DNA from: Chiloscyllium plagiosum
Lineage: Eukaryota
Length of the DNA: 28,788 bases
Direction of reading: 5' to 3'
Assembly (NCBI RefSeq): GCF_004010195.1
Contig: NC_057759.1
Location: 2,461,199 to 2,489,986 of the forward strand
Shown here: piece after piece, positions 726 to 25,315 of the stretch
Layout: each line of letters opens with the position of its first letter
Numbering within the stretch: position 1 is the first letter of the stretch
Made by a program: the position numbers and the translations under genes
Notes under the pieces: generated by a model
Database searches by the model: none
What the model was told of the DNA's origin: nothing
Seen by the model: the letters and a program-made list of their open reading frames with translations, nothing else

Positions 726-971
726 GTTTTGGAAGGCCCGTGTTTTACATATACCCAACAAGTAGGTTTGTGAAAGAAGGAGAGACTTTAAAATTGGAAT
801 GTGGGGCAGATAAAGGAAGAGTTGTTTATTGTTGCAAAAATGAAGAGCAATTCACTCAAACACAGAGCAATGCTAATGAAATACTCGTGAACAGTGAAAT
901 TGCTGGATCTTATTCCTGCATAAGACATTATGAATGTCTCAAGAGTGCATCTGTTGTAATTGTCATCATTT
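726..971 (+). CDS. Ig-domain exon 1 (FGRPVFYIYP...EGETLKLECGA...AGSYSC...VVIVII)
   Basis: Polypyrimidine tract + ttcAG acceptor at 724-725, donor GTAAGT at 972; 246 bp, phase 1-1; B- and F-strand Cys (LEC, YSC) present. Confidence 0.85.
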
Positions 972-1229
972 GTAAGTGAACTTTTTTAAAAATTCCTTCA
1001 CAGGACGATGGTGTCACTGGCTAGGCCAGTATTTATTGCGCATCCCGAGAGCAGATAAGAGTCAACCACTTTGCTGTGTAGTCCAGCTTGACTCTGATTT
1101 AAACTGAAAATACTGCATGGAAGTCGAGTGCGCATTGATGTAATGATTTTTCTGATCCCCCAGATAACTTTCAGCCAAACACACATGTTTTAGCATGAAT
1201 CAGTTAAGTAAGGTTAGGTATCTGAAATG

Positions 1230-2180
1230 GGAGTTTGTAATTTCACATGAGGAGAGGTTGAGTAGATTGGGCTTGCAATATTCGTGCTTAGAAGAATGAG
1301 AGGCCACTTATTGAAAGTCCTTAGAAGGACCTGACAGGGGAGATGAGGAGAGACGTGGTTTCCCCTTACCATGGAGAGTCTGGAACCAGAAGGGCATCGT
1401 CTCAGAATGATGGGGATGCACAGATGAGGAGGAATTTCTTCTCTCGAAAGGCATTAAATCTATGGAATTCATTACTGCAGAAGGCTTTCGATGCTGGGCC
1501 ATTCACACCTGTCACCCTCTGTGTCAAACAATCCTGAAATTACCCTCTACGTCTCCTGCCTTTCATTTTAACGTCATGCCCACCCCCCGTGTTATTTCCC
1601 TTCAACTACAGGGAACACCTGCTACCCATCTCCCACTGTCCATACGCTTCATAATCTTACGCATCTATATCAGGTGGCATGGTGGCTTAGTGGTTAGCAC
1701 TGCTGCCTCATAGCGTCAGGGACCCGGCTTTGATTCAATTGACAAGCGACTGAATTTGTGGAGTTTGCACATTCTCCCTTTACCTGCGTGGGTTTCTTTT
1801 GGATGCTCAGGTTTGCTTCCCCAAGCCAAAAACTGCGCCGTTTGGGTGCATCAGTCCGGGGTAAATGTGGAGTTATAGGGGAATAGATTTGGGCAGGTTA
1901 CTCTTCGGAGGGTCATTATGGAATTGTTGGGCTGAAGGTCCTTTTCCCACACATTAGGATTCCATGATTCCCTCTCAGCCTTCTCTACTTCAAAGTGAAC
2001 AGCCTGATCTTATCCAGTCTCTCTTCATTGCTGCAATTTTCCCCATCCCAGGCAACATCCTGGTGAATCTTCTCTGCACGCCCTCCAGTGCAATCACAGG
2101 CTTTCTTTAGTTCAGAGGCTGGGACCGTGTACAGTGCTCCAGCTGTGGCCTCAGAAAAGTCCTGTTCACCTCCTATAGTA
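1230..2180. mobile_element. CR1 fragments (+ ~1230-1495; - ~1500-2180, interrupted by a SINE)
   Basis: 'MRRNFFSRKALNLWNSL' CR1 ORF2 end on +; antisense 'ccaggcaacatcctggtgaatcttctctgcac' on -. Confidence 0.7.
1673..1968 (+). mobile_element. tRNA-derived SINE (elasmobranch HE1/V-SINE-like)
   Basis: A-box-like ggtggcttagtggttagc, degenerate B box, core tgtggagtttgcacattctccc shared with three other copies. Confidence 0.8.
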
Positions 2181-2257
2181 CCTCCTTTTGTTAGAACTGT
2201 ATTTTGTTGTGCTTAAATCTCATTTGGTATCCAGCTTTTATCACAGTTCTTTTGCAG

Positions 2258-2524
2258 TTTCCACAGAAACTCTAACTCTGGAATCTAAGCGGCCGCATGT
2301 TCGGAGGTACGAGAACATTGTAATGTACTGCCGTATGCCATCCCAAAACTTGCGAGGACACAAGCATTTCCAGTGGTATCGGAATAATGAGCTGATAAAA
2401 GAAACTGAAGATGATTCATTCACCATAGAAAGTGCAGAACATTCAGATGAAGCACCCTATCGATGTGAATTAACAAATCACTATAGAAAGTGGGTTTCGA
2501 ACAATCTAACTGTCACAGCATCAG
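2258..2524 (+). CDS. Ig-domain exon 2 (STETLTLE...MYCRMP...FQWYRNNELI...DEAPYRCELT...LTVTAS)
   Basis: tttgcAG acceptor ending 2257 (in-frame alternative at 2266), donor GTTGGT at 2525; 267 bp, phase 1-1; canonical C...WY...DxxxYxC Ig motif. Confidence 0.9.
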
Positions 2525-2639
2525 GTTGGTGTTTCCTTTGTTTAGTTAGTGAGTGACTTGATGATTAGATGCTGCATCTGTGTAAGCTGCTTTTGACAGA
2601 ACCCTCCCAGTGATGGGGACTCGAGGACAGGAGCAGGGT

Positions 2640-3585
2640 GCTTCATCACTGATCTTCCCTCCATCATAAGATCAGAAGTGGGGATGTTCACTGATGATTG
2701 CACAATGTTCAGAATCATTCTCCACTACTCCGAAATTGATGCAGTCTGTGTTCAAATGAAGCAAGGCCTGTATAATATCCAGAATTGGTACAACAAGTGG
2801 CAAGTAACATCTGTGCCACACAAATGCCCAAAACCGGTCATCAATAATAGTAGCCTCTCTAACTGTCACCCACTAGACATTCAACGATGTCGCCATCAAT
2901 GAATCCCCTATTATCAACATTCTAGAGTTTCCGACAGATTAGAAAGAAAAACAACTGCAATCAGCATGTAAACACAGCAGCTCCATGAGCTTGTCAGAGG
3001 CTGGGAATCCAACAGCAAATAACTTACTTCCTGACTTCTTGAAGCCTGTCGACCAACAACAAAGCACCAGTTGGGAGTGTGCTGGAGTACTTCCGACTTG
3101 CCTGGATGGGTGCAGCTCAAACATGACTCGAGAAGCTCGATACAATCCAGAGACAAGGCAGGCTCTGCTTGATCGGTACCACAACCAATGCCTCCACCTT
3201 CGTTTCTCAGTAGGAGTAGTGTATAAAATCTACACGATGCACTGCAGAAAGTCACCAAAGATCCTCAAAGAGAACCTCCCAAACTCAGACCACTTCCATC
3301 TATAAGCTCAAGAACAGCAGATAAATGGGAATACCACCCTCCAACAAGTAAAAATCTGAGGCACTCACCATCCTGACGTAGAAATAATTCAGCCATTCCT
3401 TCAGTGTCACTGGACCGAAATCGTGGAAATCCCTCCCAAACGGTATTGTGGATCAACCAGCAGCCAATGGCTTGTAGTGGCTCAAAAAGATAGCTCACCA
3501 CCAGCTTCTCGGGGAGACAGCTAGGGACAGACAATAAAATATTAGACAGCCAGAGACACCCATGGCCCATGCGTGAATGGAAAAC
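2640..3585 (+). mobile_element. L2/CR1-group LINE 3' fragment
   Basis: RT motif EVGMF(T)DDCTMF (cf. FADD), 'VVYKIYTMHC' segment repeated at ~24040-24380, tail ending gtgaatggaaaa. Confidence 0.7.
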
Positions 3586-3669
3586 GTTTTGCTGTAATTG
3601 TCCAGGGTGAGACCACACCCTGGAGTTTTGTGTGTGAAGTATGGATCTCCATATCTGACGAAGTATTGT

Positions 3670-4975
3670 TTTGTGTCTTTAGCTTGATTGAGTTTGTAAA
3701 TGGAGTAACTAAAAAGATTGATGAAAACAGAGTGTTTGACATCGTTGACTTGTACTTTAGTGAAGCCTTTGACAAGGTGTCAGGAGGTAGAACAATTAGA
3801 AACTTTCGATCACTTGGGATTCAGGGAGAACCTGCCAGTTGGATACAGGTTCGTCTTGATAGTGGGCGGCAGTGGGTGATGACGGGACGCACGTAACCAG
3901 CGGTGTTCAACAGGGATCGGTGATGGGTCCACTTCATGTAAATGATGTGGATGAGAACAAAATGAGGCATTGTTAGCATATTTGCAGATGACACCCAAAC
4001 TGGTGGTCACATCGATAATGAAGAAGGTTATAAAGATTATGAAGAAATCTTGATCAATTGGGTCAATGGGCTGAGGAATGGTAGTTGGAATTTAATTTGG
4101 ATAAATGTGACTTATTGCATTTTGGTACTATAAATAATGACAGAACTTGGGCAATTCAGGGTAGTGCCCTTGGTAGTGCTGCAGGGCTGAGGGACCGAGG
4201 GTTTCAGGTACATAATTCTCTGAAGTAGGCCGGTTGTTTAAGAAGCACGCTTTGCTTAATTGCTCAGACTTTTAAGTATCGGAATTGGATGTTATGTTGA
4301 GGTCTCAAGGGGCATTGGAGTGCGGTGTGCTGTTCTGGAAGGATATTATTAAACTGGACATAGTTCAGGAAAGATTTATCATAATGTTACTGTGAATGGA
4401 AGGTTTAAGATATAAAAATAGACTGAAAAATCTGTGACTTTTTTCCACTGAAGTGTAGCAGGTTGAGGGGTGACTTTATTAAAGTTCATAAACAATGAGA
4501 GGCATAGATAAGGTAACTGACGAGGGTCTTTTTCACCCGGGTGAAGAAGTTCAAAACTATGGGGCATATTTTTAATGTAAGAGGTGAAGAATTTAAGAAG
4601 GACACGTGGGCAACTGAGAATAGTTCATGTTTGGATTGAACTGTCAGAGCAAGTAATGGATACATGTACAGGTAGATTTTTTCAGAGACACTTGGATAAG
4701 TTCATGAACAGGAAGTTTTGGAGTGATATGGCTCAAATTCAAGCAGGTGAGACAAGTATAGTTTGGGAACATGGTCGGCATGGACTGGTTGGATTGAACA
4801 GTTTTTTCAGTGTAGGATGTCTCTAGGACTGGACAGGGTTAATGCAGAATGGATGTGCCTGACGACTGGGGTGGGGTTGGCGGGGAAAGCACAGGGGAGT
4901 CCAGAACCAGGGATTGACCGTCTAAAGGAGACTGGATTACACTGAGATGAGGAGAAATGCCTTTTGCAGAGATTT
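3670..4975 (+). mobile_element. CR1 LINE ORF2 (RT) fragments
   Basis: 'VFDIVDLYFSEAFDKV', 'FADDT' (tttgcagatgacacc) and CR1 3' UTR; many stops and frameshifts. Confidence 0.85.
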
Positions 4976-5592
4976 GCATCCTTGCCTTCTCTGTAAACAG
5001 GCCAGTTCCTTTTAGTTTCCAAACAATTTATCTGCATCAGCTATAACTTATGATCGCTATTGCCGACTGAATACTTAATCTGAGTGTGTCATATAATATC
5101 AGTAAGACCTGATATGCATATATCTTGTTGATCGTGCCCGATTGTGCTGCTATATTATCCTTTGCCCTTGCCTTTTACACTTACAACTTATTAATAAGTC
5201 GTGTCAATCCTCGTATTGTATCTGCCTATTTACTTCTCCTCACCTCCACTCACAGTTGATGTCAGTTGAGAGAGAAATGGTAACAGGTATTATGTGACAT
5301 ACTAAGTCCGTAAAGTGGCTGAATGACCTCCAGCTGTTCTGTTTTCTTATGTTCTTGACTAACTCCTCAGTTAAGGAGAACTAAGCGATGGCAATACTTA
5401 GGTAAGTTGAAAACAAATTAACATAATTGATTTCTTTATTCGGACTAGATCGGACAAAATATCGGGGATGGGTTTGCGGAACTAATACTTGAAAATGCAT
5501 TTTGAACAGAATGTGATAGTGAATGTTTTCGGAGCACTTACTGGTGTAATGACAGCCTGTGGTAAGCTGTAATGATGCAACTGTGCTTTCAG

Positions 5593-5856
5593 TCTTAGAC
5601 AGAAATATGGCTTTCCATGTTGTCCCTGTTTCACCATTGGAAGGAGAGTCACTGGAACTGAATTGTCAGGATGTTTACAGTTATTGGTGGGAGAGGGAAT
5701 TTATCTTTTACAAAAATGGCAAGAATATCCATTCAGTGAAGTTCACAACATCTGAATCCTCGTATCGCATTGAAGTAAACAACACTGATGACAGTGGATG
5801 GTACAATTGCAATGTTGACTTGGAAAAATCACGAGATGTTAAGATTCAGGTTCAAG
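5593..5856 (+). CDS. Ig-domain exon 3 (LDRNMAFHVVP...EGESLELNC...FYKNGK...DDSGWYNC...KIQVQ)
   Basis: tttcAG acceptor ending 5592; 264 bp to the phase-1 position AAG|GCACGT (GC donor); Ig motifs intact. Confidence 0.85.
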
Positions 5857-5919
5857 GCACGTAACCAATTTTGTACAATGTGCACAAGACAGTCCATTCT
5901 TCCTGGGTCTGACCCAGTC

Positions 5920-6790
5920 AATGGAATGGATGTCACAAAATTTGTGGAAGATATAGAGCTAGTTGGTAAGATGAGTGATGAGGATATCATAAAGGGCCTG
6001 CAGAGGGACAGAGGTAGTTTAAGACCAAAAACAAAATCGTAAACTGGAATACAATGTGGAAAACCGTGAGATTTTGTGATCTGGCAGGAAGAATAGAGGA
6101 ACTGAATATATTTAAATTATGAAAGACTGCAGAAAGCTACAGGAGTGATTCCTCATCTGTGAAACAGAAAAAGTGAGTGTCCAAGTTCGGTGGGTCATAC
6201 GGAAGGCAAATGGTTTTTAATTTGAAGGGAATGGAGTGTAAAACTCAGGAGATTACACTAACACTCTACAAGCACTAGTCAAACTTCAGGAAAACACTAT
6301 GATCAGTTTTTGGGACCTTTATCTCAGGAAAGATAGACTGATCATTGGAGGCAGTTCAGAGAAGAATCACTCGGCTGATCTTGGGCATGAAGGGACGGTT
6401 CTGACTGAGGATTAAAAAAATGAGAGACAATCTTATTGAAGATTCTTAGAGGGACTTGACAGGGGATATGCGGAAAAATGTGTTATCCCCCTTCCAGAAG
6501 ATTCTGGAATCAGAGAGGCATCGACTTAAAACCGGAGGTGAGGAGAAATTCCTTCTCTCTAAGTGGACTGAATCTGTGGAATTCTTTACCACAGAAGGAT
6601 ATTGTGGCAGGGTTGTTAAGTACATTCCAGGTTGAGGGATGTAATTGTTTTTAATCAGGGAGGTTATTGTGAATAAACAGCAAGAAAGTGGAGTTGAGGG
6701 TGATCGAATTAGACATGATCGTCTTGAATAGTGGGTACAGTCTCAATGGACTGAAAGGTCTACTTCTGTCCCTACATCTTATGCCCGTAC
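5920..6790 (+). mobile_element. CR1 LINE 3' fragment
   Basis: 'KFVEDIEL' (cf. KFADDTK), 'LQRD', aatctgtggaattctttaccacag and 3' tail. Confidence 0.75.
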
Positions 6791-6944
6791 AATCTATTAA
6801 AAGCAATCTGAACCTTTCACAATTAATTTTGATGCTTTCTTAAATAAGGTGACTGATATGATACACAGTACTGTTGTTGGTCTTCCTATGGTGCCAAACA
6901 TGATTTCAGTGATAATCCTGGAGGTGATTGATAGCATTCTATTA

Positions 6945-7315: not shown

Positions 7316-7366
7316 TAGATTTCTGTTTTTACTGGCACATTCTCTGAACAGAGAGATGAATACAAG

Positions 7367-7370
<4 letters not shown>

Positions 7371-7414
<44 letters not shown>
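7371..7414. repeat. (GA)22 microsatellite
   Basis: Perfect dinucleotide run. Confidence 0.95.
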
Positions 7415-7417
<3 letters not shown>

Positions 7418-7504
7418 GGAACAAGATCCAATCGAAACATGGGGAGAATAAACAGTTGGTATTTGGGTTATTCCCATCACGGGATCCCTCAAAAATAAAA
7501 ATTG

Positions 7505-8095: not shown

Positions 8096-8377
8096 AATGC
8101 CTTGCCAAGACCGTGCTGACGGTGGAGCAGGCGGCTGAAGTATTCGAGGGGCTTTGGTTCACGCTGACGGGCACTGTCCAGGCGGCACGGCCCTCCGACC
8201 AGTTTCACTACTTGTTTTACAGAGACAGCGCCGCCCTGTATGCCACGCTTGATCATGGCAGCGTGGACACCATCAACGCAGCGACTGAAAACATTTCCGG
8301 GAATTACGCCTGTAAAGTGATCGAGATGGTTTACAGTCTGAGGAAGAGAAGCGACAGCATTCACATTTCCGTTAAAC
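8096..8377 (+). CDS. Ig-domain exon 4 (CLAKTVLTV...FTLTGTV...YLFYRD...SGNYACKV...RKRSDSIHISVK)
   Basis: tccAG acceptor ending 8095, donor GTAACT at 8378; 282 bp, phase 1-1; F-strand GNYAC present, expected B-strand Cys is Gly (GGC 8170-8172). Confidence 0.85.
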
Positions 8378-9420: not shown

Positions 9421-9692
9421 AGGCGTTTGCCATTCCTAAGTTGACCGTGCAACCCGAGGAACAAGTGTTTAATGGCCAATTGGTTAAATTGGTGTGCTTG
9501 GCTGAAGTAAATCCGTCTCAAGCGTCCTTGCAGAACAGCTTTTTAGAAATGGGGTTCCTCTCCAGTCTTCATCCGAACACAGCGATTACATCTCTGAGTC
9601 AGCTCGTCCGGCAGACTCGGGCACTTACCATTGTGAAGTCACAGACGGGAAGGTGTGGAAATGCAGTAATCAACTCCCTTTGTCCATCAGAT
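9421..9692 (+). pseudogene. Ig-domain exon 5, frameshifted (AFAIPKLTVQP...VKLVC.../RNGVPL...ADSGTYHCEV...LSIR)
   Basis: ctttccAG acceptor ending 9420, donor GTGAGT at 9693; 272 bp (one short of 273); the two halves of the domain lie in different frames, joined at the T5 run 9540-9544. Confidence 0.85.
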
Positions 9693-10399: not shown

Positions 10400-11910
10400 G
10401 ATTTATCCTAGAATTCTCTTGAAAGTCAATGAGGAGATTCCCAAGCCATTTGCTTTGATGCTTATGTCGTCATTATCCACAGAAATAGTGCAGAAAACTG
10501 GAGGATAGCAAATGTTGATCCCTTGTTCAAGAAGTGAATTAGAGACCATCCTGGTTATTATAGGTCCATGAGCCTTACTTTGGTGGTGGGTGAAGTGTTG
10601 GAAAGGTTTAGAAGAGACAGGGTTTAAAATCATCTGGAGATGAATAAGCTGATTAGGGCTGGTCAACACGGTTTTGTTAAGGATAGGTCGTGCCTCACAA
10701 ACCTTTCTGAGAACTTTGAGAATGTAACCAAATAGGCGGATGAAGGTAAAGTGGTTAATGTGGTGTATATGGATTTCAGTAAGTCGTTGATAAGGTTCCC
10801 CACGGGAGACTATTGCATAAGGTACAGAGGCATGGGATTGAGAGTGATTTAGCGGTTTGGATCAGAAATCGTCAAGCTGCAAGAAGATAGAGGATGGTGG
10901 TTGATGGGAAATATTCATCCTGAAGTTCAGTTACTATTGCGTACGGCAGGAATCTGTTTAGGGGTCACTGCTGTTTGTCGTCGAAACAATGACCTGGGTG
11001 AGGGTAGAGAAGAATGAGTTAATAAATTTGCTGATGATGCTAATGACGGTAGTGATGTAGATAGTGATGAAGAGTGTTGTAGTTTACAGAGAGACATAGA
11101 TAAGTTGCAGAACTGGGCTGAGAGGTGGCAAATGGAGTTTAGTGCGGTAACTTGTGAGGTGATTCACTTTGGAAGGATTAGCATGAACGCAGAGTACTGG
11201 GCTTCCCGTAAGATTCTTGGCAGTGTAGATGAGCAGAGATCTCGTTGTTCGTGTCCATCGATCCATGAAAGTTGCCACACAGGTTGGTAGGGTCACTAAG
11301 AAGACATATGGTGTGTTAGCTTGTATTGGTAGAGGGAAAGCGTTTCGGAACCATGAAGTCATGCTGCAACTCTCCAAATCTCGGGTGTGGCCACATTCGG
11401 AGTATTGCGTACACTTCTGTCACCGCATTCTCGGAAGGGTGTAGAAGCTTTGGAAAGGGTTCAGATAAGGTTGACTAGTATGTTGTCTTGTATGGAGGGA
11501 AGGTCTTATGAGGAAAGACTTGAAGTTGTGTTCGTCAGAGAGAAGATGATTGAGAGGTAACTTGATTGTGACATATAAGATAATCAGAGGGTTAGATAGG
11601 TTGGACAGTGAGATCATTTTCACCTGTATAGTGATGGCTCACATAGGGGGAATATCCTTAAATTGAGGATTATTAGATATATGACAGATGTTTGAGGTAG
11701 TTTTGTTACTCAGATATAGTGAGTGGAATGCATTGCCTGCAACAATAGTGGACTAGCCAATTTTAAGGGCATTTCAATGGACATTGGATAGGCATGTGGG
11801 CGAGAATGGAATAGCGTAAGTTCGATGGGCTTCAAACTCATTCCACAGGTTGGTGCAACATTGAGGGCCAAGGGGCCTGTACTGCGCTGTAATTTTCTAT
11901 GTTCTATGTT
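10400..11910 (+). mobile_element. CR1 LINE ORF2 (RT) long 3' fragment
   Basis: Decayed 'PGYYRSMSLTLVVG', 'GQHGF', 'VVYMDFSK', 'KFADDA', 'LQNWAERWQMEF' motifs; (ctatgtt) tail at ~11897-11910. Confidence 0.9.
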
Positions 11911-12492
11911 CGAGTGTAAGCTGATGCATTTTTGGGAAGTGAAATGCTCCAGGAAAATTTACAGTAAATGGCAGGATCCTTAAAAGCATTGATATACAGA
12001 GGGATATTGGGATGCAAGTCCATTGTTCCCTGAAAGTGGAAACACAATTGGATATGATGTTTAAGAAGTCAGATGGCAAGTTTGTTGTCATCGGTCTGTC
12101 AATTAGTATAATATTTGGCAAGTCATACTGAGCTGTATAAGACTTTAGTTCCAGCACGTTTCTTGGATTGGTCTCCAAACGATCGGAGAGATGTGAAGGA
12201 TTTCGAGAGGTTGCAAAACAGGTTTATCTGGATGTTGCCTAGACTGGAGTATGTGAGCTATGAGGAAAGTTTGGACAAATTTGAATTGTTTTCACGAGAG
12301 CATTGCAAAGTGTGAGTGGAGCCACCTGGCATATATAAAATTATGAGTTGTAAGAATGCTCGCTGAGTTGGAAGGTCTGTTTTCAGACGATTCGTCACCA
12401 TACTCGATATCATCATCCGTGAGCCTCCAGTTACGCACTGGCGTTATGTCCGCTTTCCCATTATGTGCTTTGTTTTCTTCAGTTGAGTGAAC

Positions 12493-13555
12493 TTAGAACA
12501 TTGAACATTCCAGCGCGGTACAGGCTCTTCGGCCCTTGATGTTGCACCAATCTGTGGAAACGATCTGAAGCCAATCGAACTTACACTGTTCCATTTTCAT
12601 CTATATGTCTATCCAATGACTACTTAAATGCCCTTAAAGTTATCGAGTCTCCTACCGTTGCAGACAGGTCGTTCTGTGCCTCTACTGCTCTCTGAGTAAA
12701 GAAACTTCTTCTGATATCTGTTCTATATCTATCATCCCTCAATTTAAAGTTGGAAAAAGGCTCTCACTGTCCACCCTATCTAACCCACTGATTATCTTAT
12801 ATGTTTGAATTAAGTCACTGCTCAACCTTCTTCTCTTTAATAAAATAGCCTCACATCCCTCAGCTTTTCCTCTTAAGACCTTCCCTCCATACCAGGCAAC
12901 ACACTAGTAAATCTCCTTTGAACCTTTTCCAAATCTTCCACATTCTTCCTGTAATATGATAACCAGAATTGTATGCAATGCTCAAAGTGCGTCCCCACCT
13001 GAGTTTTGTACAGCTGCAGCATAACCTCATGGCTCTGAAACTCAATCCCTCTACAAACACACCATACACCTTCTTAACAACCTTATCAACCATGGTGAAA
13101 ACTTTCATGGATCAATGTATATGGGCACTGAGATCTCTCTGCCAATCTACACTTCCAAGAGTCTTATCATTAGTCCAAAACTCTTCACTCATGTTGCTCC
13201 TTACAAAATAAATCACCTTACACTTTACCCCATTAAACTCCATTTGCCGATTCTCAGCCAGCTCTGCAGCGTATCTATGTCCTTCTATAACTCAAAACAT
13301 CCTTCTTCACTATCCACAACTCTACCGACGTTATTAACCGATTCTTCTATGCCCTCATCCAGGTCATTTACAAAAATGGCAAAAATCAGTGACCGCAAAA
13401 CAGATCCTTGCAGTATAGAAAATGCGACTGAACTCCAGGATGAACATTTCCCCTCAACCATCACCTCTGTCTTCTTTCAGCTAGCCAATGTCTGAACCCA
13501 ACCGTGTAATCGCCCTCAATCCCATGTCTCCATATTTCGGGCAATAGCCCACATA
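12493..13555 (-). mobile_element. CR1 LINE 3' fragment nested in the Penelope-like element
   Basis: Antisense of the same CR1 family as 1-525 and 10400-11910 (aagaccttccctccataccaggcaac). Confidence 0.85.
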
Positions 13556-15637: not shown

Positions 15638-15903
15638 GGATTTCAGTGTCAAATCCAGAACTAATAATTCAACCCAGACAGAAGCTAATTGAAGGATTTG
15701 CAGGATCATTAATCTGTTCAGTCTCCAAGGGTTGTCTGCCGATATACTACCAATTTTACAAGGGGTCAAGCGTGGAGCTGTACTGGGAGTTTTTTGCAAA
15801 ATTGGAGCTATCAGCAGAAGGGACGAAGGACTTTGCAATTGCTCAGAGAGAAATGAGGTGACAGGCCCTCAGCACAGTGAAGATATAGAGATCACAGTAA
15901 TAG
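15638..15903 (+). pseudogene. Ig-domain exon 6, frameshifted (ISVSNPELIIQP...SLICSVSKGCLPIYYQFYK.../RDEGLCNCSERNEVTGPQHSEDIEITVI)
   Basis: tttatAG acceptor ending 15637, donor GTAAGT at 15904; 266 bp (not a multiple of 3); N-half in ORF 15622 frame, C-half in ORF 15732 frame, switch near T6 run 15790-15795. Confidence 0.85.
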
Positions 15904-16019
15904 GTAAGTTCACAAGGGCTCTCTCCCAAACAGTAACTGAACCATTAGCCCAGAGACTACTGCTGTTCGGATCAACTCTAAGTGGGTACTTTGTCCTTGA
16001 CCAGTTTTGACTAAAGCAG

Positions 16020-16050
<31 letters not shown>
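16020..16050. repeat. (CA)n(GA)n compound microsatellite
   Basis: cacacacagagagag... run. Confidence 0.9.
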
Positions 16051-16065
16051 GGATGGGGTGTTGTA

Positions 16066-16175
16066 AGAGAGGACGGCAGATGCTAGGGTTCAGCATCAAA
16101 AAATGTGGTGCTGGAAAAGCACAGCCTGACAAGTGGCATCTGAGGAGCAGCAGCATCGACGTTTTGGGCATATGG
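16066..16175 (-). mobile_element. Penelope terminal-repeat fragment (antisense)
   Basis: Reverse complement gcccaaaacgtcgatg...gctgtgcttttccagcac matches 17030-17090. Confidence 0.8.
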
Positions 16176-16283
16176 TCTTCAAGGACAAAGTACCAGCTTT
16201 GAGTTGATCCGAACAGCAGTAGTCCCTGGGCTAATGGTTCAGTTATTCTTTGAGAGAAAGCCCTTGTGAACTTACCTATTACT

Positions 16284-17138
16284 CCCCACCCCTTTCCGCC
16301 TTCCGCAAAGACCGTTCCATCCGTGACTACCTCGTCAGGTCCACGACCCCCTACAACCCACCCTCCCATCCTGGCACCTTCCCCTGCCAGCGCAGGAATT
16401 GCAAAACCTGCGCCAACACCTCCTCCCTCCCCTCCATCCAAGGCCTAAAGGAGCCTTTCACTTCCATCGAAGTTTTATCTGCACATTGACCAATATCATT
16501 TATTGTATCCGTTGCTCCCGATGCAGTCTCCTCTACATTGGGGAGACCGGACACCTCCTAGCAGAGCGCTATAGGGAACATCTCTGGGACACCCGCAGCA
16601 ACCAACCACACCGCTCTGTGTCCCAACATTTCAACTCCCTCTCCCACTCTGCCGAGGACATGGAGGTCCTGGGCCTGGTTCACAGCCGCTCCCTCACCAC
16701 CAGACGCCTGGAGGAAGAACGCCTCATCTTCCTCCTCAGAACACTTCAACCCCAGGGCATCAATGTGGACTTCAACAGTTTCTTCATTTCCCCTTCCCCC
16801 ACTTCACCCCACTTCTAAACTTCAAGCTCAGCACTGTCCCCATGACTTGTCCTGGCTGCCTATCTTCTTTTCCACCTATCCACTCCACCTTCCTGCCTGA
16901 CCTATCACCTTCATCCCCTCCCCCAATCACCTATTGTATTCTATGCTACATTCTCCCCACCCCCACCATCCTCTCATTTATCTCTCCACCCTTCAGGCAC
17001 TCTATCTGTATTCCTGATGAAGGGCTTTTGCCCGAAACGTCGATTTTACTGCTCCTCGGATGCTGTCTGAACTGCTGTGCTTTTCCAGCACCTGTAATCC
17101 AGAATCTGGTTTCCAGCATTTGCGGTCATTGTTTTTGC
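16284..17138 (+). mobile_element. Penelope-like element 3' part (Cys-rich linker + GIY-YIG endonuclease + terminal repeat), Neptune-like
   Basis: 'PGTFPCQRRNCKTC' then, after a frameshift, 'NIIYCIRCSRCSLLYIGETG..ERYREH..V..HF..RRLEEERLIF.L.TLQPQGIN'; pyrimidine-rich 3' region; hammerhead motif at 17014-17041. Confidence 0.9.
17011..17045 (+). ncRNA. Minimal type I hammerhead ribozyme motif (family 1)
   Basis: CUGAUGA-A-GGGC(UUUU)GCCC-GAAA-CG-UC. Confidence 0.7.
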
Positions 17139-17341
17139 CCTGTTTAGTCCTGGCATCATCCTTGTAAATTTCTTCAGCATTCTTTCCAGTTTAATAACAT
17201 CCCTCCTTGAAAATTAGTTTTTGAACACATCACATCGCCTAACTCTATTTTAAATTCATTGCATCAAACTGGTTCCCACTGATCATCTGAATCAATGGGT
17301 GAACTCAATGCATTTTGACCTTGGTGTGTTTACGTCATCTT

Positions 17342-17654
17342 GGGCGGCACGGTGGCACAGTGATTAGCACTGCTGCCTCACAGTGCCGGAGACCCGGGTT
17401 CAATTTCCGCCTCAGGCGACTGACTGTGTGGAGTTTGCACGATCTCCCCGTGTCTGCGTGGGTTTCCTCCGGGTGCTCCGGTTTCCTCCCACAGTCCAAA
17501 GATGTGCAGGTCAGGTGAATTGGCCATGCTAAATTGCCCGTAGTGTTTGGTAAGGGGTATGGGTGAGTTGCACTTCGGCGGGTTGGTGTGGACTTGTTGG
17601 GCTGAAGGGCCTGTTTCCACACTGTAATCTAATCTAATCTAAAAAATCTAATCT
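17342..17654 (+). mobile_element. tRNA-derived SINE, near full length, (AATCT)n tail
   Basis: gggcggcacggtggcacagtg A box, ggttcaatttcc B box, conserved core, taatctaatctaatct tail. Confidence 0.9.
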
Positions 17655-18004
17655 CACCTGAACAGGGGAGCTGGGCGGAAGAATGCGATGGGTCGGGAAC
17701 TGGAGTAAGCTATGTTCCTGAATGTAGGGAGGCAGAATACTCACAAAGTTAGACCATTGGATGGGGTAGCTGTGACCTCCTCCCTCCAGCCACTCTCTGC
17801 CAGAGCACCTCAAAGATAAGAAGAGACATAAAACGATGGGAATAGGACACATGAGGAGGACCTTCAGCCCCTCAGGATGGTACTCTGTTATTTAGTACCA
17901 TACATTTGGATCAACTTTATTTTCCGACCCCATTCTCTTTAAACTGTGACTCGTTAAAAATATCTATCTCCTTAGATTTATTCAAATTCACTGGGGAGAC
18001 TGAT

Positions 18005-18421
18005 CTAACCCTAACCACGAATGAACCCTAGCAGTAACCCTAATCCTAAACTCAAACCTAACCCAACCTTAACCATTACCCTAACATTAACCCTAAACCT
18101 GAACTCAAACCAACCCTGAACGCAAACTCAACCATTAAACCTAAACTTAACTCAAACCCAACCCTCTCCCTTACTCTAATTTTGCACCTAATCCAGAAGC
18201 TAGCATTGATCTTAACCCTAACTGTCGCCCTAGCTCTATCCCTAATCCTAACCCCGATTCTAAACCTAAACATAAACTTAATGCTAACAGTAACTCTAAT
18301 CTGAAACCTAACTCTTCACATAACTCTAACCGTGGTCCTCACTCAAACACTAACGCTAACCCTAGCTCTCACCCTCAGCATAATGAAGGCCTTCTCACTA
18401 ACTAAGCCTCACTCTAACCCT
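18005..18421. repeat. Degenerate (CCCTAA)n telomere-like hexamer array
   Basis: 6-bp periodicity ctaaccctaacc/ctaaac/ctaatc over ~420 bp. Confidence 0.85.
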
Positions 18422-18582
18422 ATTGCACCTGTTTAATGTGCATTAAGTGGGTTTGACAATTATCATCTATCGATGTGTTTGTTCCCTGTTTATGGCTGAG
18501 ATAAGGTCTTGGCAGCTCCTGACTGTTACAGTGCAGAACTACTCTCCAATATGCTGAGCATATTTTCTCTCTATGCCTGCAG

Positions 18583-18613
18583 TCAATCCCTCAACTCTGT
18601 CACAGACCAGGAG
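18583..18613 (+). CDS. Cytoplasmic mini-exon A (xNPSTLSQTR)
   Basis: Pyrimidine tract + tgcAG, strong donor GAG|GTAAGT; 31 bp, phase 1 to 2, matching the phase needed by the next exon. Confidence 0.7.
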
Positions 18614-19133
18614 GTAAGTGACTGAACCTGCAGTTTTTAGATTTGCCGTTGTTTCCCCGATTCCTCTTAATCACAGATACGACCAAAGTGAAGAGGTCAT
18701 TGAAGAAGCTTGGATATGACTGCATCCTTTTAACACAAAGCAGGAAACCACACACGAAGCAAGTCCCAGATGGCTTTTATTCACCCACAGGGATGTGGAC
18801 CAGTCCTTATTGTCCATCCTTAATTGCTACAGAGGACAGTTATAGTTTACCAGTGTCTGGAGTCTCATGTGGGCCTAGACCGGGTAAATACGACATATTT
18901 CCTTCCCCAAAGGACATTACTGAAGACAAAATGAAGAACTGGGCAGCTCCTTGAGGATGAGAATTCTTTATGTTCGGATGGAAACCAGGGATGTCGGACC
19001 AGGGAATACCAGGTTTCGCTAGGTTCAGTATTTCCTGTGATAGCATTGCCGTCTTGTTGAAGTTGAACATGGTGTTGAAAGCATTGTGTTCGAAATGACG
19101 AAGTCTTTTCCCTCTCTTTTCAACTGGAACTAG

Positions 19134-19207
19134 ATCCCAACCTTCTGGTGAAAGGACAGCAGCCAACAATCTGGAGTATGCAGTAGTTGGAGCAGCACAC
19201 ACTGTTG
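19134..19207 (+). CDS. Cytoplasmic exon B with ITIM LEYAVV (SQPSGERTAANNLEYAVVGAAHTV)
   Basis: Pyrimidine tract + ctAG, donor G|GTGAGT at 19208; 74 bp, phase 2 to 1; ITIM consensus at 19171-19188. Confidence 0.8.
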
Positions 19208-19354
19208 GTGAGTGCCAATCAATCGATGTGATTAATGAGCTCTACACAGTGACAGAGAAACATAACCTGGTAGAATTTCTAGATAATCATCCGAGCCATC
19301 AGATGGGCTCAAGTGGACGATTTGCTTCGTGCTGCGGAGGCTGAGGGAGAATGC

Positions 19355-20300
19355 AGAATCTAGACAACAGGAGTAGACTATTCAGCCATTTCAGTCTGCC
19401 CCACCATTCGTTATGATCATGGCTTACCATCCAACTCAATCTCCAGTTCCCGTACAAACTAGGCATTGGCCATTTGGCCATTTTAGCCTGCTCCGCCCGT
19501 TTGATAGGATCACGGCTGAACATGAAACTCAGTCCTTGATTCCCCGCTTTCTCCGCCGTACTATTCAACCCCAATCACCCCAAACGATGCCAACTGCTTC
19601 TTGCTTGAGATGAACAAAATGATGACTATCTTACAAAAGGTAAACTGGAAGAAAAGTTTCCTTTCGATAGAGGGATCAACGGATGCCATAAAAAGAAAAA
19701 GAAACAAAAAAAAATACAGGACAGGAACAAAACCCTTGGCCCTCCAAGCCTGTGCCGATCATCATGCCCTTACCAACCTAAAAAAAAAACTCTCCCGCCC
19801 TTATTTGGTTGGTATACCACAATTTCCTCCCTGTTCATGTGACCACCCAGGTGCCTGTTAAATGTCACCAACGTGCCTGCTTCCATCACCACTTCTAGCG
19901 ATGCTTTTCAGGCTCCTGCCACTCACTGCATGAAAAGATTCCCTTGCACATCTCCCTTAAACTTTCCCTCCTTCTCACCTTGAACCTGTGCCCCCTTGCA
20001 AATTGAAACATCAACTCTGGGAAAAACCTTCTGCCTCTCATAAGTTTGTCGACCTCTATCAGGTCTCGTCTCAGCTACCAGTGAAAAAATTCTCGTCGTT
20101 TTAACCTTTCCTTGTGGCCAATGTCCACGAGAGCTGGCAAAATCCGAGTGAACCTTCGCTGCACTCAGCCTCATCCTTCCACGTCCTCTGTTAGTGTGGC
20201 GGCAAATGTGGCCTAACAAGATAATTTGCCAACACTCATACTCCATGCCTGGCCGATGAAGACGAGCATGTCATTTGCTTTCTTTATTACCTTGGCCACC
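19355..20300 (-). mobile_element. Cluster of antisense CR1 3' fragments
   Basis: caggagtag.c.attcagcc, acaggaacaaaacccttggccc, 'GKFKGDVQGNLF' on the - strand. Confidence 0.7.
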
Positions 20301-21169
20301 ATATATTGAAGTAAGGAGCAGGACCTTCAGAGGAGGATCCGAGGAAAAACCAGGTGGTGGTGGTAACTCTGTGCCTGTAAGAGTGGCATAAATCCCCAGT
20401 GAAGAAAAATTTAAATATGCACTTGCCATGATAAGGCTTTGGGTCACGTGCAGGGGAGATGGGATCAGAATATAGTGAGGTGGTTGCTTTTGACTGGCAC
20501 AGATTTGATGTGTTTTTTTTTGCTGTAGACATCTATCTTCAACAAATCTCTTTTCTAAATGGCTATGGCTGTTAATATTCTGTGATTGGACCTCCACTAG
20601 GGTGTTTGGCCTGACTCAGTAATGCTTATTTAATCTCGAGTAACACAGGAAACTCAACAGGGTGCAGTTCTCTGGTGTTGAGAAATCCAACAGACATTAG
20701 TTACAACGAGCGATTATGTGCTTAGATCCGATTCCTCAGACAGACGAACGCCTCGAGCAAACAAAAATGAACTGGATCACGTTTCCAGTATAGTTGTCTT
20801 TCGAGAGGACTTGGCTAACTTGATGATCCCTAATGAAATGTCTCTACATGCATGTTTGTCTATATATCTATCAAAATAAGGTTATAGAACCATAAGCTAT
20901 ATGAGCAGAATTAGGCCATTCAGCCTATCAATACAGCTCACCCCTCGACCATGGCTGATATGTTCCTCAACCTCACTCCTGCCTTCTTCCCATTAACCTT
21001 CATCCCCCTTACTAATCACGCTCTATTGATCTCGGTCTATAAGTTATTTGTCTATGTTTCTCTCTCATCATCTCTCTATCTAATTCATTTATTCTATGGA
21101 TCATTAGCCCATTATAATAAAACTTTCGGATTCATGCGTATTTTTTGTGTGCATTTATTTTCTTTGTAG

Positions 21170-21261
21170 AAAACCACTGTGGCTCTGGTTATTCAGAGGT
21201 CACCATCAAGAAGAGAACAAAGACCAATAAAGATCTCATTTCTTCAATAATACGATTGTGA
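21170..21261 (+). CDS. Cytoplasmic exon C with SGYSEV motif (ENHCGSGYSEVTIKKRTKTNK..., reads through to TGA 21259-21261)
   Basis: Strong acceptor ttttctttgtAG ending 21169; phase-1 translation gives S-x-Y-x-x-V followed by basic residues; 3' boundary uncertain. Confidence 0.7.
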
Positions 21262-21749
21262 GAAAGGGGATGAGGAAGGTTGGGGTTGGGATCATTGAAG
21301 CTCCAGCAATAACACGATTCCAGTTGCTGAGCAAATGTCTGTGTTTGTGACCAGTTCTGAACATGGACGTGCCAAAGTACTTTGAGAGACAGACTGTGAG
21401 GGAATGCAGCGTGTGCAAAACTAAAAAAATCACCAGCGTCAACGGAGTGGACAGTAAGCCAGCCAATCAGAAACAAGCATCAATCTGATCTGTTCTGTTC
21501 CTTTATTCTCCTAAATATAAGGTAAAGGTAAACAATTTGGAGATGATTTATATGTTGTCAGTGATCCGTAACAATCTCGCAGTGCGATTAGAGTGAGATA
21601 TATCTATTTGTGTTGGGTGGGTGGGTTATGATGGTGGTTGCTTTGCAATTACTTTTTTGCACATGTATATAAATTCTCTGTGTGAGAATGGCAGAGGGAC
21701 ATGCACTTTATTCTTAGCTGAGGCAGATAGAGATCATTTCCACATAAAT

Positions 21750-21935
21750 TTAAGAACTGTAGATGCTGCAGATCTGAAACAAATTCGGACATTTCTGGAG
21801 AAACTCAACAGGTCTGGCAGCGTCTGTGGAGATAAAGGGATAGAGACTGAGCTACCTTTGCAGAACATAAATGCAGAAAGTGTTGGAGAAACTCAGCAGA
21901 TATGGCACCATCTGTGGAGAGAGAGAAAACAAGTC
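21750..21935 (-). mobile_element. Two tandem Penelope-type terminal fragments (antisense)
   Basis: gatgctg...ctggagaaactcaacaggtctggcagcgtctgtggaga and ttggagaaactcagcagatatggcaccatctgtggaga, related to 16075-16145. Confidence 0.55.
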
Positions 21936-22846
21936 ATCCTTTTGTTATATAATGCTCAAGGCCGATTTGCCTAATACTGCCACTCAACGATTTGAGATAA
22001 CTCAGAAAATTAAAGCATCGCTAAGCGTATTGTTGCTCAGAAAGTTGAGCTTACAATTATCATGCAGATGCTTGTAAACACACATAAGGGGCATTTGAAC
22101 CGAAATTGGCCTTATCTACAATGAAATCTGTCTCTCAGAACACATTCTAGTCACCGTTTCAGGGGATGAGCAGTAAAAGTCTTGTTCATCCAGACCATTA
22201 TCCTGTTCTCTCCTTGGACAACGAGAGAGAGTGGTGGGAGTAAGCTGAGAGGTGGTTTAATTTGAGTGTCATTATGCCTCATGAGAGGGGATAGATTCAG
22301 AAGGAGAGCCCTTCAGAGTATTTTTCACCTGGTGTGGGAATTGTACTCATGTTGACAAAAGTTGGCGTATAATGCATTGCAAAAACGAACCATGCAGCCA
22401 GCTGAACCACACGGAACTAGCAGCTTACAGCAGTTAAAACTCAAATGTATTTAACGTGAATAATTCAATCATGTCTTTTATGTTCAACAACTGGGCAAGT
22501 GACGCAAAGGCTGAGGACATTAAGATGGCCTGTAGAAGATGATACACTAAACAGCATTGTAAAAGCTGATACACCTTCTTAATGATCAGAAAACCAATTG
22601 CAGGATTTAAAGGGAGCCAAGTTTTCTAAGTGCGATACTCTAAAGTGTCTGAATTGATTGAGAGGGACACACTTTTGAAAATGTTGCATTTATTTTTGTT
22701 TTTTTTTTCACAAGATGACAAAAACACAGCTACGCTTTTGCAAAATGCAGCTCCGTCTTCAGTGTTGATCAGCCACCAATGTGTCCTGATCCAATTGTTA
22801 ATACCTGCAAAGAGATTTTTCTCATCTTAGTCTGTTTTATTTTCAG

Positions 22847-22880
22847 GCAACAGCATTGCTTTCTCCACAATGTGAAAAAG
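22847..22880 (+). CDS. Candidate cytoplasmic mini-exon D (ATALLSPQCEK if entered in phase 0)
   Basis: ttttattttcAG acceptor and AAG|GTATGT donor; 34 bp; phase 0 to 1 would join the terminal exon; upstream partner unresolved. Confidence 0.55.
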
Positions 22881-22999
22881 GTATGTCACATTTTATGTCT
22901 ATATAGACAACATCTATTACCACAGAAAGTGTAGGTAGATTAATACCTTGTATCCACAGTGTAAGTGGTCAACTGTTGGTTATTTTCAGATTAATTGAA

Positions 23000-23850
23000 G
23001 GATACACCATAGAAATTAGGGGCCGGTGAAGGTCATTCAGCCCTTCCAATCTACTCTCTGCATTCAATCGGATCATCCTAATCTGTCTTCTCTTCCCCCA
23101 TTTTCTCATTTTAGCCCGCAAGAACTCTATCCAACTTCTCCCTGAACAGTATTCCGTGTTGTGGACCTGTGGTAAAGAATTCCACAGGGTCCCCCACTCT
23201 CTGTGTGAAGACATTATGCCCCATCACGGTCCTACTCCGTCTCCTTTCGACTGTAACCCCACTCCGGTTCTGTACTCCCACCTGTTCATCGGGAACCTCC
23301 TTCCTGTGTTTACCATGTTTAGTCCTCTTGCAATTCTATTGGATTCCCCGTTATTCTTATGAACTACTGAGAATCTAATAGTTAATCCAGTCTCTCTTCA
23401 TCCGTCTTGTCGTCCCAGGAATCACATTGGAAAATCTTCCCTGCAGTCCCTCCATAGCTAGAATGTCATTCCACAGATGAGGAGACCCCAAACTGCATCC
23501 ACAGTCTGGCAGAATATCGTCTCACCCTGTGTAATTGCAGAGAGACATCCCTGCTCCTGGACATGAATCCTGTCACTATGCAGGCCAACATTCTATTTAC
23601 CTTCTTCCCCGCCTGCTGCTCCTGCAATGCTCACTTTCAGTGACTGGTGTATGAGGGACCTTTCCCAATCCATCACCATATGGTTAATAATTCACCATCC
23701 TGTTTTTGCTCTCAATTGGATAATCTCACGCTGATCCACAATAAATCGCATCTGATGTACATTGGCCTACTGTCTCAACGTGTCGAAATCACACCGATGC
23801 ATCTCTGCATCCTCTTTCACATCTCCCCGTCCCTCTCAGAGTTGTGTCTG
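23000..23850 (-). mobile_element. CR1 LINE 3' fragment
   Basis: Antisense 'TLWNSLPQ' ORF2 end, aaagaattccacag and 3' UTR. Confidence 0.7.
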
Positions 23851-24029
23851 TCTCTAAAAACAGAAAAATAAACAGCAATGGTTTCTCAATGGAATAGATC
23901 ATTCTGTATTGCATTCCACTTCCAATTCTCTGGGGCAAGTGAGTTTCAAAATTGGGGCAAAACTGTTGGTGTTGATTTAGTTCCCTTTCCTACATTATGA
24001 AAACATTACTCGTTATGTAGTTGGCAGTC

Positions 24030-24385
24030 CGTTGTCATTTGCACCGTTTGGTAGCAGTAGTGTGTACTATCTACAAGGTGTACTGTACAAAGTCACCAAA
24101 GATCACCAGACAGCACCTTCCAAATCTACAGCTACTTCCATCGAGAAGGACCAGGGCAGCAAATGGGAACACCAAACCTTGCGAGTTCTCCTCTGACCCA
24201 CTCACCATCTTTCAGAAATACATTAGCCGTTCCTTCAGTGTCGCTGGGTCAAACTGCTGCAATTCTCTCCCTAAGTGAATTGTGAGTATACCTACAACAT
24301 GTGGAAGCACAGTGGCTCAGGAAGGCAGCTCACAGTCACATTCTCACAAGATCACTTGGAGACAGGGCAACAAATTAAATTGGAA
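24030..24385 (+). mobile_element. L2/CR1-group LINE 3' fragment (same family as 3190-3585)
   Basis: 'VAVVCTIYKVYCTKSPKI' matches 'VGVVYKIYTMHCRKSPKI'; tail resumes after the SINE at ~24692. Confidence 0.7.
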
Positions 24386-24390
24386 TCTGT

Positions 24391-24691
24391 GGGTGGCAGA
24401 GTGGCACAGTGGTTAGCACTGCTGCCTCACAGCGCCAGAGACCCGGGTTCAATTAACTGCCTTAGGCGACTGTCTGTGTGAAGTTTGCACATTCTCCCCG
24501 TGGATTTCCTCTGGGTGTTCCGGTTTCTTCGCATAGTCCAAAAATGTGCAGGTTAGGGGAATTGGTCATGCTAAATTGCCTGTAGTGTTAGGTCTAGGGG
24601 AATGGGTCTGGGTGGGCCCCGCTGCGACGGGTCGGTGTGGACTTGTTGGGCAGAAGGGCCTGTTTCCACACAGTAAGTAATCTAAAAAAAA
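24391..24691 (+). mobile_element. tRNA-derived SINE
   Basis: gtggcacagtggttagcactgctgcctcacagcgccagagacccgggttcaat head, taatctaaaaaaa tail. Confidence 0.9.
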
Positions 24692-25196
24692 GCTGGGCCC
24701 AGGCAGCGATGCTGCCATCCCATAAGTAAATGGAAACAAAATCAAAATCCTCTCCACCTACTCTGTTCCAAAGAAAGCAAGACGAATTATCCAGCTTTTC
24801 TTCATTGCTGAAATTTTCAATCCCGGACAACATCTTGAGGAATCTCTTCTGCACTCCTTCACTGCAATCTCATTCTTCCGAAAGTGCAGAGATTGAAACT
24901 CTTCACAATGGCCTCACCAAAACTCTGTACCGCTCAAACATCACCATTCCACTTCTGTAATCCACATGGCACACCACAGGAGCATGTGGGAATTCAAACC
25001 TGCCTTCCTGGCTCAGAGTTAGAGACATTCCACTGAGCCACCAGATTTCAAACTCGCAGACCCTGAACTGCCTGCTGGTGATTCCCATTTTCTCCTTATA
25101 TTCCGCGCTACCTGTACCCCAACTGACCTCTCCTTCCCCTTCAGCTTTCTGCTCTCACTCGATTCCAATTTTATTTTTGATATCATTTAATTGCAG

Positions 25197-25315
25197 GATG
25201 CCAGACTGACGCCGATGAGTATTGTATCACATACTCTGCATTGAACATTAGCGAGCCCTTGCAGGAAGAAGATGGAACAGCTGGAAATGTCTATGAGAGT
25301 ATTCCGCCCAAGTAA
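25197..25315 (+). CDS. Terminal coding exon (CQTDADEYCITYSALNISEPLQEEDGTAGNVYESIPPK*) with ITIM ITYSAL
   Basis: ttgcAG acceptor ending 25196; phase-1 translation gives ITIM ITYSAL (25226-25243) and NVYESI (25286-25303) before TAA 25313-25315. Confidence 0.8.

What the first reader, a model, noticed from the sequence alone, without database searches (positions are those of the whole stretch)
726..25315. Shark-type FCRL/PECAM-like inhibitory receptor locus: 6 Ig exons plus a tail with three ITIM-like motifs
Seen: six phase-1 Ig exons and mini-exons encoding LEYAVV, SGYSEV, ITYSAL and NVYESI. These mini-exons are missed by the ORF track. Known: this architecture is typical of FCRL-family receptors that recruit SHP-1/SHP-2. 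Inference: a cartilaginous-fish member of an FcR-like family, relevant to the origin of Ig-binding and inhibitory leukocyte receptors.
Basis: partly seen in the sequence, partly recalled or inferred. Interest (0 to 1): 0.7.

Follow-up and report, generated by a model that had tools for sequence, protein, structure and literature searches.

The report
Broken shark Fc receptor-like gene copy
This is a broken copy of a shark immune-receptor gene: two of its six immunoglobulin-domain exons are frameshifted and the membrane-anchor exon is absent, so it likely makes no receptor, although its intact relatives in sharks are predicted to be inhibitory Fc receptor-like proteins.

Summary
The six Ig exons and the tyrosine-motif exons are at the stated coordinates and belong to one gene. 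Ig exons E (272 nt) and F (266 nt) are frameshifted, and the spliced frame stops after 451 residues, before any tail motif. The seventh Ig exon and the transmembrane exon of intact relatives are absent; a GIY-YIG retroelement fragment and an inverted duplicate lie where they are expected. Exon D has lost its first cysteine, one tail exon has lost its donor and another carries a stop. 'SGYSEV' is a damaged LVYSEV. Intact relatives are RefSeq-annotated carpet-shark 'FCRL/PECAM-like' proteins, with at least six gene models apparently on one Chiloscyllium scaffold. Domain trees and profiles place the family nearer FCRL (D1-D2-D3 order) than PECAM1 or CD22, with mixed support. Verdict: most likely a pseudogene in a birth-and-death FCRL-like cluster. 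No read-level check was obtained. The locus itself is ordinary. The family matters more: two papers state that sharks lack FCRL, while a 2024 single-cell study already names fcrl genes in shark B cells.

The parts
726..971 (+). Ig exon A (246 nt, frame open); C-strand Trp, invariant in 6 of 6 homologous domains, is Cys here; domain type unresolved
2258..2524 (+). Ig exon B (267 nt, intact-looking), likely FCRL D1-like; 78% identical to P0016
5593..5856 (+). Ig exon C (264 nt, frame open, GC donor), FCRL D2-like
8096..8377 (+). Ig exon D (282 nt), FCRL D3-like; first cysteine, invariant in 18 of 18 homologous domains, is Gly
9421..9692 (+). Ig exon E (272 nt), D3-like; 1 nt short, frameshift near 9540-9545 in a T run
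15638..15903 (+). Ig exon F (266 nt), D4/D5- or PECAM d5/d6-like; net 19 nt short near 15790, frameshift; Tyr of the YxC motif is Cys
15904..18582 (+). intron in which the seventh (G-type) Ig exon and the transmembrane exon are expected and not found
16179..16283 (-). inverted duplicate (105 nt, 92%) of 15896-16000, the end of exon F and start of its intron
16284..17140 (+). retroelement fragment with a weak GIY-YIG match (E 3.4e-4, below the Pfam cut-off); Penelope-like by recalled knowledge; its terminal repeat is also present inverted at 16107-16181
19134..19207 (+). tail exon 2 (74 nt, phase 2 to 1), LEYAVV motif, intact
21170..21226 (+). tail exon 3 remnant (about 57 nt against 20 codons in homologues); SGYSEV in place of LVYSEV; AT at the expected donor, next GT at 21258
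25197..25315 (+). last coding exon, ITYSAL and NVYESI, TAA stop; 76% identical to P0016

Best explanation
The locus is a broken, intron-containing copy of a carpet-shark Fc receptor-like gene, with frameshifts in two Ig exons and no transmembrane exon, and it is likely a pseudogene that makes no receptor. Shown: the exon map, the frameshifts, the premature stop, the missing G-type Ig and transmembrane exons, and the damaged tail exons. Inferred: it arose by tandem duplication in an FCRL-like cluster; it lost the two membrane-proximal exons in a deletion that may be tied to the retroelement insertion behind exon F; it then gathered further lesions; and any transcript would likely be degraded by nonsense-mediated decay. 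Intact paralogues are predicted type I membrane proteins with an uncharged transmembrane segment and four tail tyrosine motifs. By analogy with mammalian FCRL (established knowledge, untested in sharks) they would recruit SHP-1/SHP-2 and dampen leukocyte activation.
For: Splicing A to F gives a stop after 451 residues. All 6 of the 8 tested splice paths that keep E or F stop before the tail motifs. Exon lengths are 272 and 266 nt against 91 and 95 codons. G and TM segments of 12 shark homologues find no counterpart on either strand: best profile E 0.1 and 0.63, against 9.9e-26 for the F control and 8.3e-18 for a 38-residue tail control. Of 20 carpet-shark proteins that have the last tail exon, 19 have a TM segment (isoforms included, so not independent). 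The lesions are of several kinds: a 19-nt loss, loss of two exons, Cys to Gly, Trp to Cys, Tyr to Cys, a lost donor and a stop. In the relatedness-matched test exons D and F rank first of 19 and first of 17 for changes at invariant columns. The inverted duplicate differs by 8%, which fits an old genomic event rather than a read fold-back (inference). P0016/P0023 is the best match of B, D, E (3' part), F (5' part) and the last exon, so Ig exons and tail come from one gene lineage.
Against: No reads were laid, so the lesions rest on one assembly. The exon E indel lies in a T run, typical of long-read error. In the matched test A (3 of 7), B (9 of 11), C (2 of 12) and E (15 of 16) show no clear excess of change, so amino-acid decay is modest and uneven. 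One path, A-B-C-D plus tail exons 1, 2 and last, stays open for 426 residues to the natural stop. A predicted isoform of the closest paralogue (P0023) also lacks G and TM. Most splice sites are still canonical.
Confidence: 0.82

Rival explanations
1. The gene is intact and the lesions are assembly errors (indels from long reads plus a collapsed or dropped segment holding the G and TM exons), so it encodes a seven-Ig inhibitory receptor.
For: The exon E indel is in a homopolymer; four of six Ig exons are not unusually decayed; tandem clusters are hard to assemble (general knowledge).
Against: It needs at least six independent errors of different kinds, including base substitutions at Cys, Trp and Tyr codons and a splice donor, and a 19-nt loss. 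The window has no N. The inverted arms at the junction are only 92% alike.
Confidence: 0.07
2. The copy has been kept as a secreted, anchor-less decoy: transcripts skip E and F, or end early, and give a soluble four-Ig protein, like the soluble catfish IgM-binding FcR-like protein described in PMC4016189.
For: A-B-C-D spliced to tail exons 1, 2 and last is open for 426 residues; B and C look intact; anchor-less predicted isoforms exist in relatives (P0021-P0024); soluble fish FcRL-like proteins are described.
Against: Exon D lacks its first cysteine and A its core Trp; the path must skip four exons that keep good acceptors; C has a GC donor; leader exons are outside the window, so secretion is untested.
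Confidence: 0.06
3. The family is a shark-specific expansion of PECAM1-like adhesion/inhibitory receptors, or a mosaic sister group of both, and not part of the FCRL lineage.
For: RefSeq names many members 'PECAM-like'. F-type domains score best on the PECAM d6 profile in 7 of 7 intact carpet-shark domains. A-type domains group with bird PECAM d3 (SH-aLRT 96.1), and the D3 and D5 clades also hold PECAM domains. PMC7916592 proposes that PECAM1 and FCRL5 are related.
Against: Whole-protein scores favour FCRL: turtle and gar FCRL3 at E 7.5e-57 to 3.3e-39 against PECAM1 at 7.5e-32 or weaker, and human FCRL5 at 1.5e-71 in the PDB. C falls in a D2 clade without PECAM (98.8). D and E score best on D3. 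G scores best on the reptile/gar FCRL membrane-proximal profile in 7 of 7.
Confidence: 0.15
4. The window is a chimera: Ig exons from one paralogue joined, by misassembly or unequal crossing-over, to the tail of the next.
For: The loss of G and TM falls between the two halves; the genes are tandem paralogues; A and C match other paralogues best, and P0016 as annotated lacks them.
Against: B, D, E, the 5' part of F and the last exon all match P0016/P0023 best, and tail exons 1-3 share residues seen only in P0016 among 9 tails.
Confidence: 0.04

Closest known systems
[quoted passage not shown]
   Same: B, D, E, F Ig types in the same order (68-92% identity), the same tail with four tyrosine motifs, and a homologous intron upstream of B.
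   Different: The window adds A and C exons, lacks G and TM, and is frameshifted; identity is too low for the same allele.
Chiloscyllium plagiosum XP_043539697-713 (P0014, 'PECAM-like') and C. punctatum 'FCRL2/FCRL5' (P0003, P0009)
   Same: P0014 has the same A-B-C-D-E-F order followed by G and TM.
   Different: These are open reading frames with membrane anchors; 55-88% identity per exon piece.
Mammalian FCRL3/FCRL5, Xenopus XFL, turtle and gar FCRL3-like
   Same: D1-D2-D3-like domains in order, phase-1 Ig exons, several small tail exons, ITIM-type motifs, tandem expansion.
   Different: Only 26-27% identity to turtle and gar proteins. The second leader exon is inferred at about 30 nt, not 21. 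Extra A-type domain. Ligand and synteny unknown.
PECAM1 (CD31)
   Same: Six Ig domains and tail ITIMs (recalled); F-type domains resemble PECAM d5/d6.
   Different: Weaker whole-protein scores; the shark genes form multi-copy clusters with shuffled domains, whereas PECAM1 is single-copy (recalled).

Membership tests
FCRL / FcR-like family | Ig domains of the FcR types D1-D5, with D1-D2-D3 in order | tested here: met
   C in the D2 clade (SH-aLRT 98.8); D and E in the D3-containing clade (95.9) and best on the D3 profile; B with D1 (79.5, unstable between trees; D1 profile best in 5 of 6 intact B domains, CD22 best for the window's own). A is unresolved and F is shared with PECAM. Type labels were set by domain order in human FCRL5 and gorilla FCRL3, from recalled nomenclature.
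FCRL / FcR-like family | Best non-shark match is FCRL or a classical FcR | tested here: met
   P0003: turtle and gar FCRL3 ahead of PECAM1 and CD22. P0010: FCRL5, then Fc-gamma-RI in the PDB. Exon B: Fc-gamma receptors are the best vertebrate hits, below two non-vertebrate Ig-like/tail proteins.
FCRL / FcR-like family | Signal peptide split over two exons | tested here: inconclusive
   Outside the window (no leader match). In the closest paralogue two predicted isoforms differ by 10 residues after residue 10, which implies two leader exons (P0176 and P0179).
FCRL / FcR-like family | 30/21-bp leader exon rule of mammalian FCRL1-6 (met by only a fraction of Xenopus XFL, PMC2413239) | tested here: not met
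   Second leader exon inferred at about 30 nt in the closest paralogue; rule as stated. Inferred from predicted proteins, not from DNA; the rule is not universal in the family.
FCRL / FcR-like family | Linkage to CD2/SLAM-family genes, IGSF9, DUSP23, TAGLN2 | not testable with these tools
   No other gene was recognised in the window; no genome held.
Inhibitory (ITIM) membrane receptor, this copy | Transmembrane segment | tested here: not met
   No match to the family's TM exon on either strand.
Inhibitory (ITIM) membrane receptor, this copy | Open frame from Ig domains to ITIMs | tested here: not met
   Stop after 451 residues; 6 of 6 paths with E or F stop before the tail motifs.
Inhibitory (ITIM) membrane receptor, intact paralogues | Uncharged TM and tail ITIMs | tested here: met
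   TM segments without charged residues in the hydrophobic core; (L/V)xYxx(V/I) twice and (I/V)TYATL in 9 of 9 tails.
Inhibitory (ITIM) membrane receptor, intact paralogues | SHP-1/SHP-2 recruitment and immunoglobulin binding | not testable with these tools
   Needs experiment.
PECAM1 | One-to-one correspondence with PECAM d1-d6 | tested here: not met
   Only F (d5/d6) and, in the tree, A (bird d3) go with PECAM domains; C, D, E and G score best on FCRL profiles.
CD22 / Siglec | Ig domains grouping with CD22 domains | tested here: not met
   No shark domain falls in the CD22 clades; CD22 is the top profile only for the window's A and B and one intact A domain.

The most novel reading that the evidence does not exclude
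This dead copy marks a birth-and-death cluster of true FCRL genes in carpet sharks, whose intact members are inhibitory receptors for shark antibody Fc regions (IgM, IgW or IgNAR) on B or myeloid cells. That would put the FcR family, and its Ig binding, in the common ancestor of jawed vertebrates and name the uncloned shark IgM Fc receptor.
Probability: 0.25. Interest if true: 0.6.

Novelty: new member of a known kind. Interest (0 to 1): 0.2.

Why it matters
The locus itself matters little: it is a likely pseudogene, and a warning that motif reading without a frame check overcalls receptors. The family matters more. PMC4016189 (2014) found no FcRL homologues in shark genomes, and the 2026 review PMC13337447 repeats that FcRL molecules are lacking in cartilaginous fish and asks how sharks manage without them. 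The homologues collected here have FCRL-type D1-D2-D3 domains, an uncharged TM and conserved ITIMs, and give concrete candidates for an Ig-binding test. That point is only partly new: RefSeq names them FCRL-like, PMC11372145 reports fcrl3/fcrl5/fcgr1a-like expression in bamboo shark B cells, and I recall (paper not held) that Wang et al. 2021, pmid 33410929, reported fcrl genes in elephant shark.

Tried and rejected
Own-genome search: none held, so no synteny and no paralogue DNA. Laying reads did not run, so the lesions and expression are unchecked at read level. A hydrophobicity scan gave many segments on both strands, as random sequence does; the specific test was the homologue TM search. 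A weak likeness of the TM segment to the start of the F intron and its inverted copy (E 0.01-0.35) was rejected: the same sequence is intron read-through in P0022. A candidate mini-exon at 22715 was dropped because nothing like it appears in the 9 homologous tails aligned. No leader exon was found in the window. The first invariant-residue test overstated decay because homologues have close relatives in the set; the matched version is the one relied on. That version left out two truncated domains. The domain trees used 179 domains; 17 were dropped as redundant or truncated. Three look-ups of earlier scan findings returned nothing. Wang et al. 2021 is not held. Seven literature searches listed no paper whose title or abstract start describes this carpet-shark cluster; subscription journals are mostly not covered. 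In the PMC11372145 supplements (one file cut when stored) the 2 of 11 'Fc receptor-like' rows that I saw were from a bony-fish sheet, so the shark gene ids behind its fcrl labels were not seen.
Full report
Observation. The window (28,788 nt, 43.8% GC, no N) holds one recognisable host gene on the + strand among LINE, SINE and simple-repeat remains (element classes recalled). I mapped six Ig exons: A 726-971, B 2258-2524, C 5593-5856, D 8096-8377, E 9421-9692 and F 15638-15903. Five tail exons follow: 18583-18613, 19134-19207, 21170 to about 21226, 22847-22880 and 25197-25315. Pfam Ig models match 7 of the 8 Ig pieces scanned. The four quoted motifs are present. The loose ITIM pattern occurs 148 times in six-frame translation, so the motifs are meaningful only because the tail aligns along its length with 9 homologous tails.

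The gene is broken. Exons E and F are 272 and 266 nt, where P0016 and P0003 have 91 and 95 codons: 1 nt and a net 19 nt are missing. Exon D has Gly at the first cysteine, invariant in 18 of 18 homologous domains. A has Cys at the core Trp (6 of 6) and F has Cys at the Tyr of YxC (16 of 16). Tail exon 3 reads SGYSEV where homologues read LVYSEV or close variants; the neighbouring frame still shows the homologue-like residues, which points to compensating small deletions (inference). It has AT at the expected donor and no GT until 21258. Tail exon 4 is 34 nt against 12 codons and holds a TGA.

Two exons are missing. In intact relatives F is followed by a seventh, G-type Ig domain and a transmembrane exon. 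G is present in 21 of 25 carpet-shark proteins and a TM segment in 20 of 25; of the 20 that have the last tail exon, 19 have the TM (isoforms are counted, so these are not independent genes). G and TM segments of 12 homologues found no counterpart on either strand of the window by tblastn or profile search (best profile E 0.1 and 0.63), while the F and last-exon controls gave 9.9e-26 and 8.3e-18. The 2.7-kb interval where they belong holds a 105-nt, 92% inverted duplicate of the F exon end and intron start, next to a retroelement fragment with a weak GIY-YIG match. A deletion tied to that insertion is a plausible cause but is not shown.

How dead, and how sure. The lesions are of several kinds, which argues against sequencing error alone. 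But decay is uneven: in a test matched for relatedness only D (first of 19) and F (first of 17) show an excess of changes at invariant columns; A, B, C and E do not stand out. The exon E indel sits in a T run. No reads could be laid. I put pseudogene at 0.82, assembly error at 0.07, a retained secreted form at 0.06 and a two-gene chimera at 0.04. Against a chimera, P0016/P0023 is the best match of B, D, E (3' part), F (5' part) and the last exon (68-92%).

The family. Exon D retrieved three proteins, from Stegostoma and Chiloscyllium. P0003 retrieved 52 proteins, the first 21 from sharks (20 carpet-shark entries and one basking-shark protein), named FCRL2/3/5/6-like, PECAM-like or similar. At least six distinct C. 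plagiosum gene models share one contig length, 8,079,144, which suggests a tandem cluster (inference). Domain order varies among members. The window's species was not determined; no protein in hand is closer than 92% in any exon piece. Outside sharks the best matches are turtle and gar FCRL3-like proteins (E 7.5e-57 to 3.3e-39), ahead of PECAM1 (7.5e-32 or weaker) and CD22 (1.2e-23). In the PDB, P0010 matches FCRL5 at 1.5e-71 and Fc-gamma-RI at 6e-22; PECAM1 is not among the best 60 of 97 shown, though short PDB fragments score lower.

Domain types. With FCRL references, trees of 179 domains on 88 columns place C with FCRL D2 (SH-aLRT 98.8), D and E in a D3-containing clade that also holds four PECAM domains (95.9), B with D1 (79.5; beside D2 at 0.49 in FastTree), F with D5 and PECAM d5 (87.3), A with bird PECAM d3 (96.1) and G with the membrane-proximal domain of reptile, gar and sturgeon FCRL (70.8). 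Profiles built only from outside the shark family agree for D, E and G, barely separate D2 from D3 for C (36.1 and 35.0 bits), and favour PECAM d6 for F. B-C-D thus repeats the D1-D2-D3 order that PMC4016189 gives for FcRL3-5 and Fc-gamma-RI. Predicted isoforms of the closest paralogue imply a two-exon leader with a second exon near 30 nt, not the 21 nt of the mammalian rule in PMC2413239. Synteny was not testable. The family works like FCRL by architecture and is probably of that lineage; I leave about 0.15 for a PECAM-related or mosaic origin.

Literature seen. PMC4016189: passages; it found no FcRL homologues in shark genomes. PMC13337447: passages; it repeats this in 2026. PMC11372145: one passage and a supplement search; it reports fcgr1a-like, fcrl3 and fcrl5 highly expressed in bamboo shark B cells. 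PMC2413239: passages and section 5. PMC7916592: passages. PMC6795676: passages, including a reference to a 1988 paper titled 'Fc receptor for shark IgM'. PMC10247546: the reference entry for Wang et al. 2021. That paper is not held; my memory that it reports fcrl genes in elephant shark is recalled, not checked.

Verdict. The feature is real, but it is a likely pseudogene of an already annotated shark FCRL-like family, not a working inhibitory receptor. Interest 0.2. The boldest reading not excluded is that intact paralogues are the shark antibody Fc receptors that reviews say are missing (probability 0.25, interest 0.6 if true); this copy cannot test that.

Noticed in passing
window 15896-16283 and 16284-17140: 105-nt inverted duplicate of the exon F end and intron start, joined to an inverted copy of the terminal repeat of a GIY-YIG retroelement fragment; it lies where two exons are missing and may record template switching and target deletion during insertion.
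   Followed up: partly
window 18020-18420: Degenerate telomere-like (CCCTAA-type) tract about 160 nt upstream of tail exon 1.
   Followed up: no
window 26747-27034: Recent tandem duplicate with 159-nt spacing, 98% identical over 129 nt.
   Followed up: no
window 5857-5862: Exon C ends in a GC donor (GCACGT); it could be a natural GC-AG intron or another lesion. The closest paralogue's models lack this exon.
   Followed up: partly
P0023, P0011, P0021, P0022, P0024: Predicted shark isoforms that skip the G and/or TM exons or read through an intron, suggesting soluble forms in the family.
   Followed up: partly
P0176 and P0179: Isoforms differing by 10 residues in the leader imply a second leader exon of about 30 nt rather than the 21 nt of mammalian FCRL.
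   Followed up: partly
P0026 (Cetorhinus maximus): A divergent basking-shark member with D2-D3-D3-D4-like domains, a TM and a duplicated FYSVI motif shows that the family extends beyond carpet sharks.
   Followed up: partly
window 10800-11910 and 12490-13550: Two LINE-like fragments in opposite orientation (75-84% alike) in the E-F intron.
   Followed up: no
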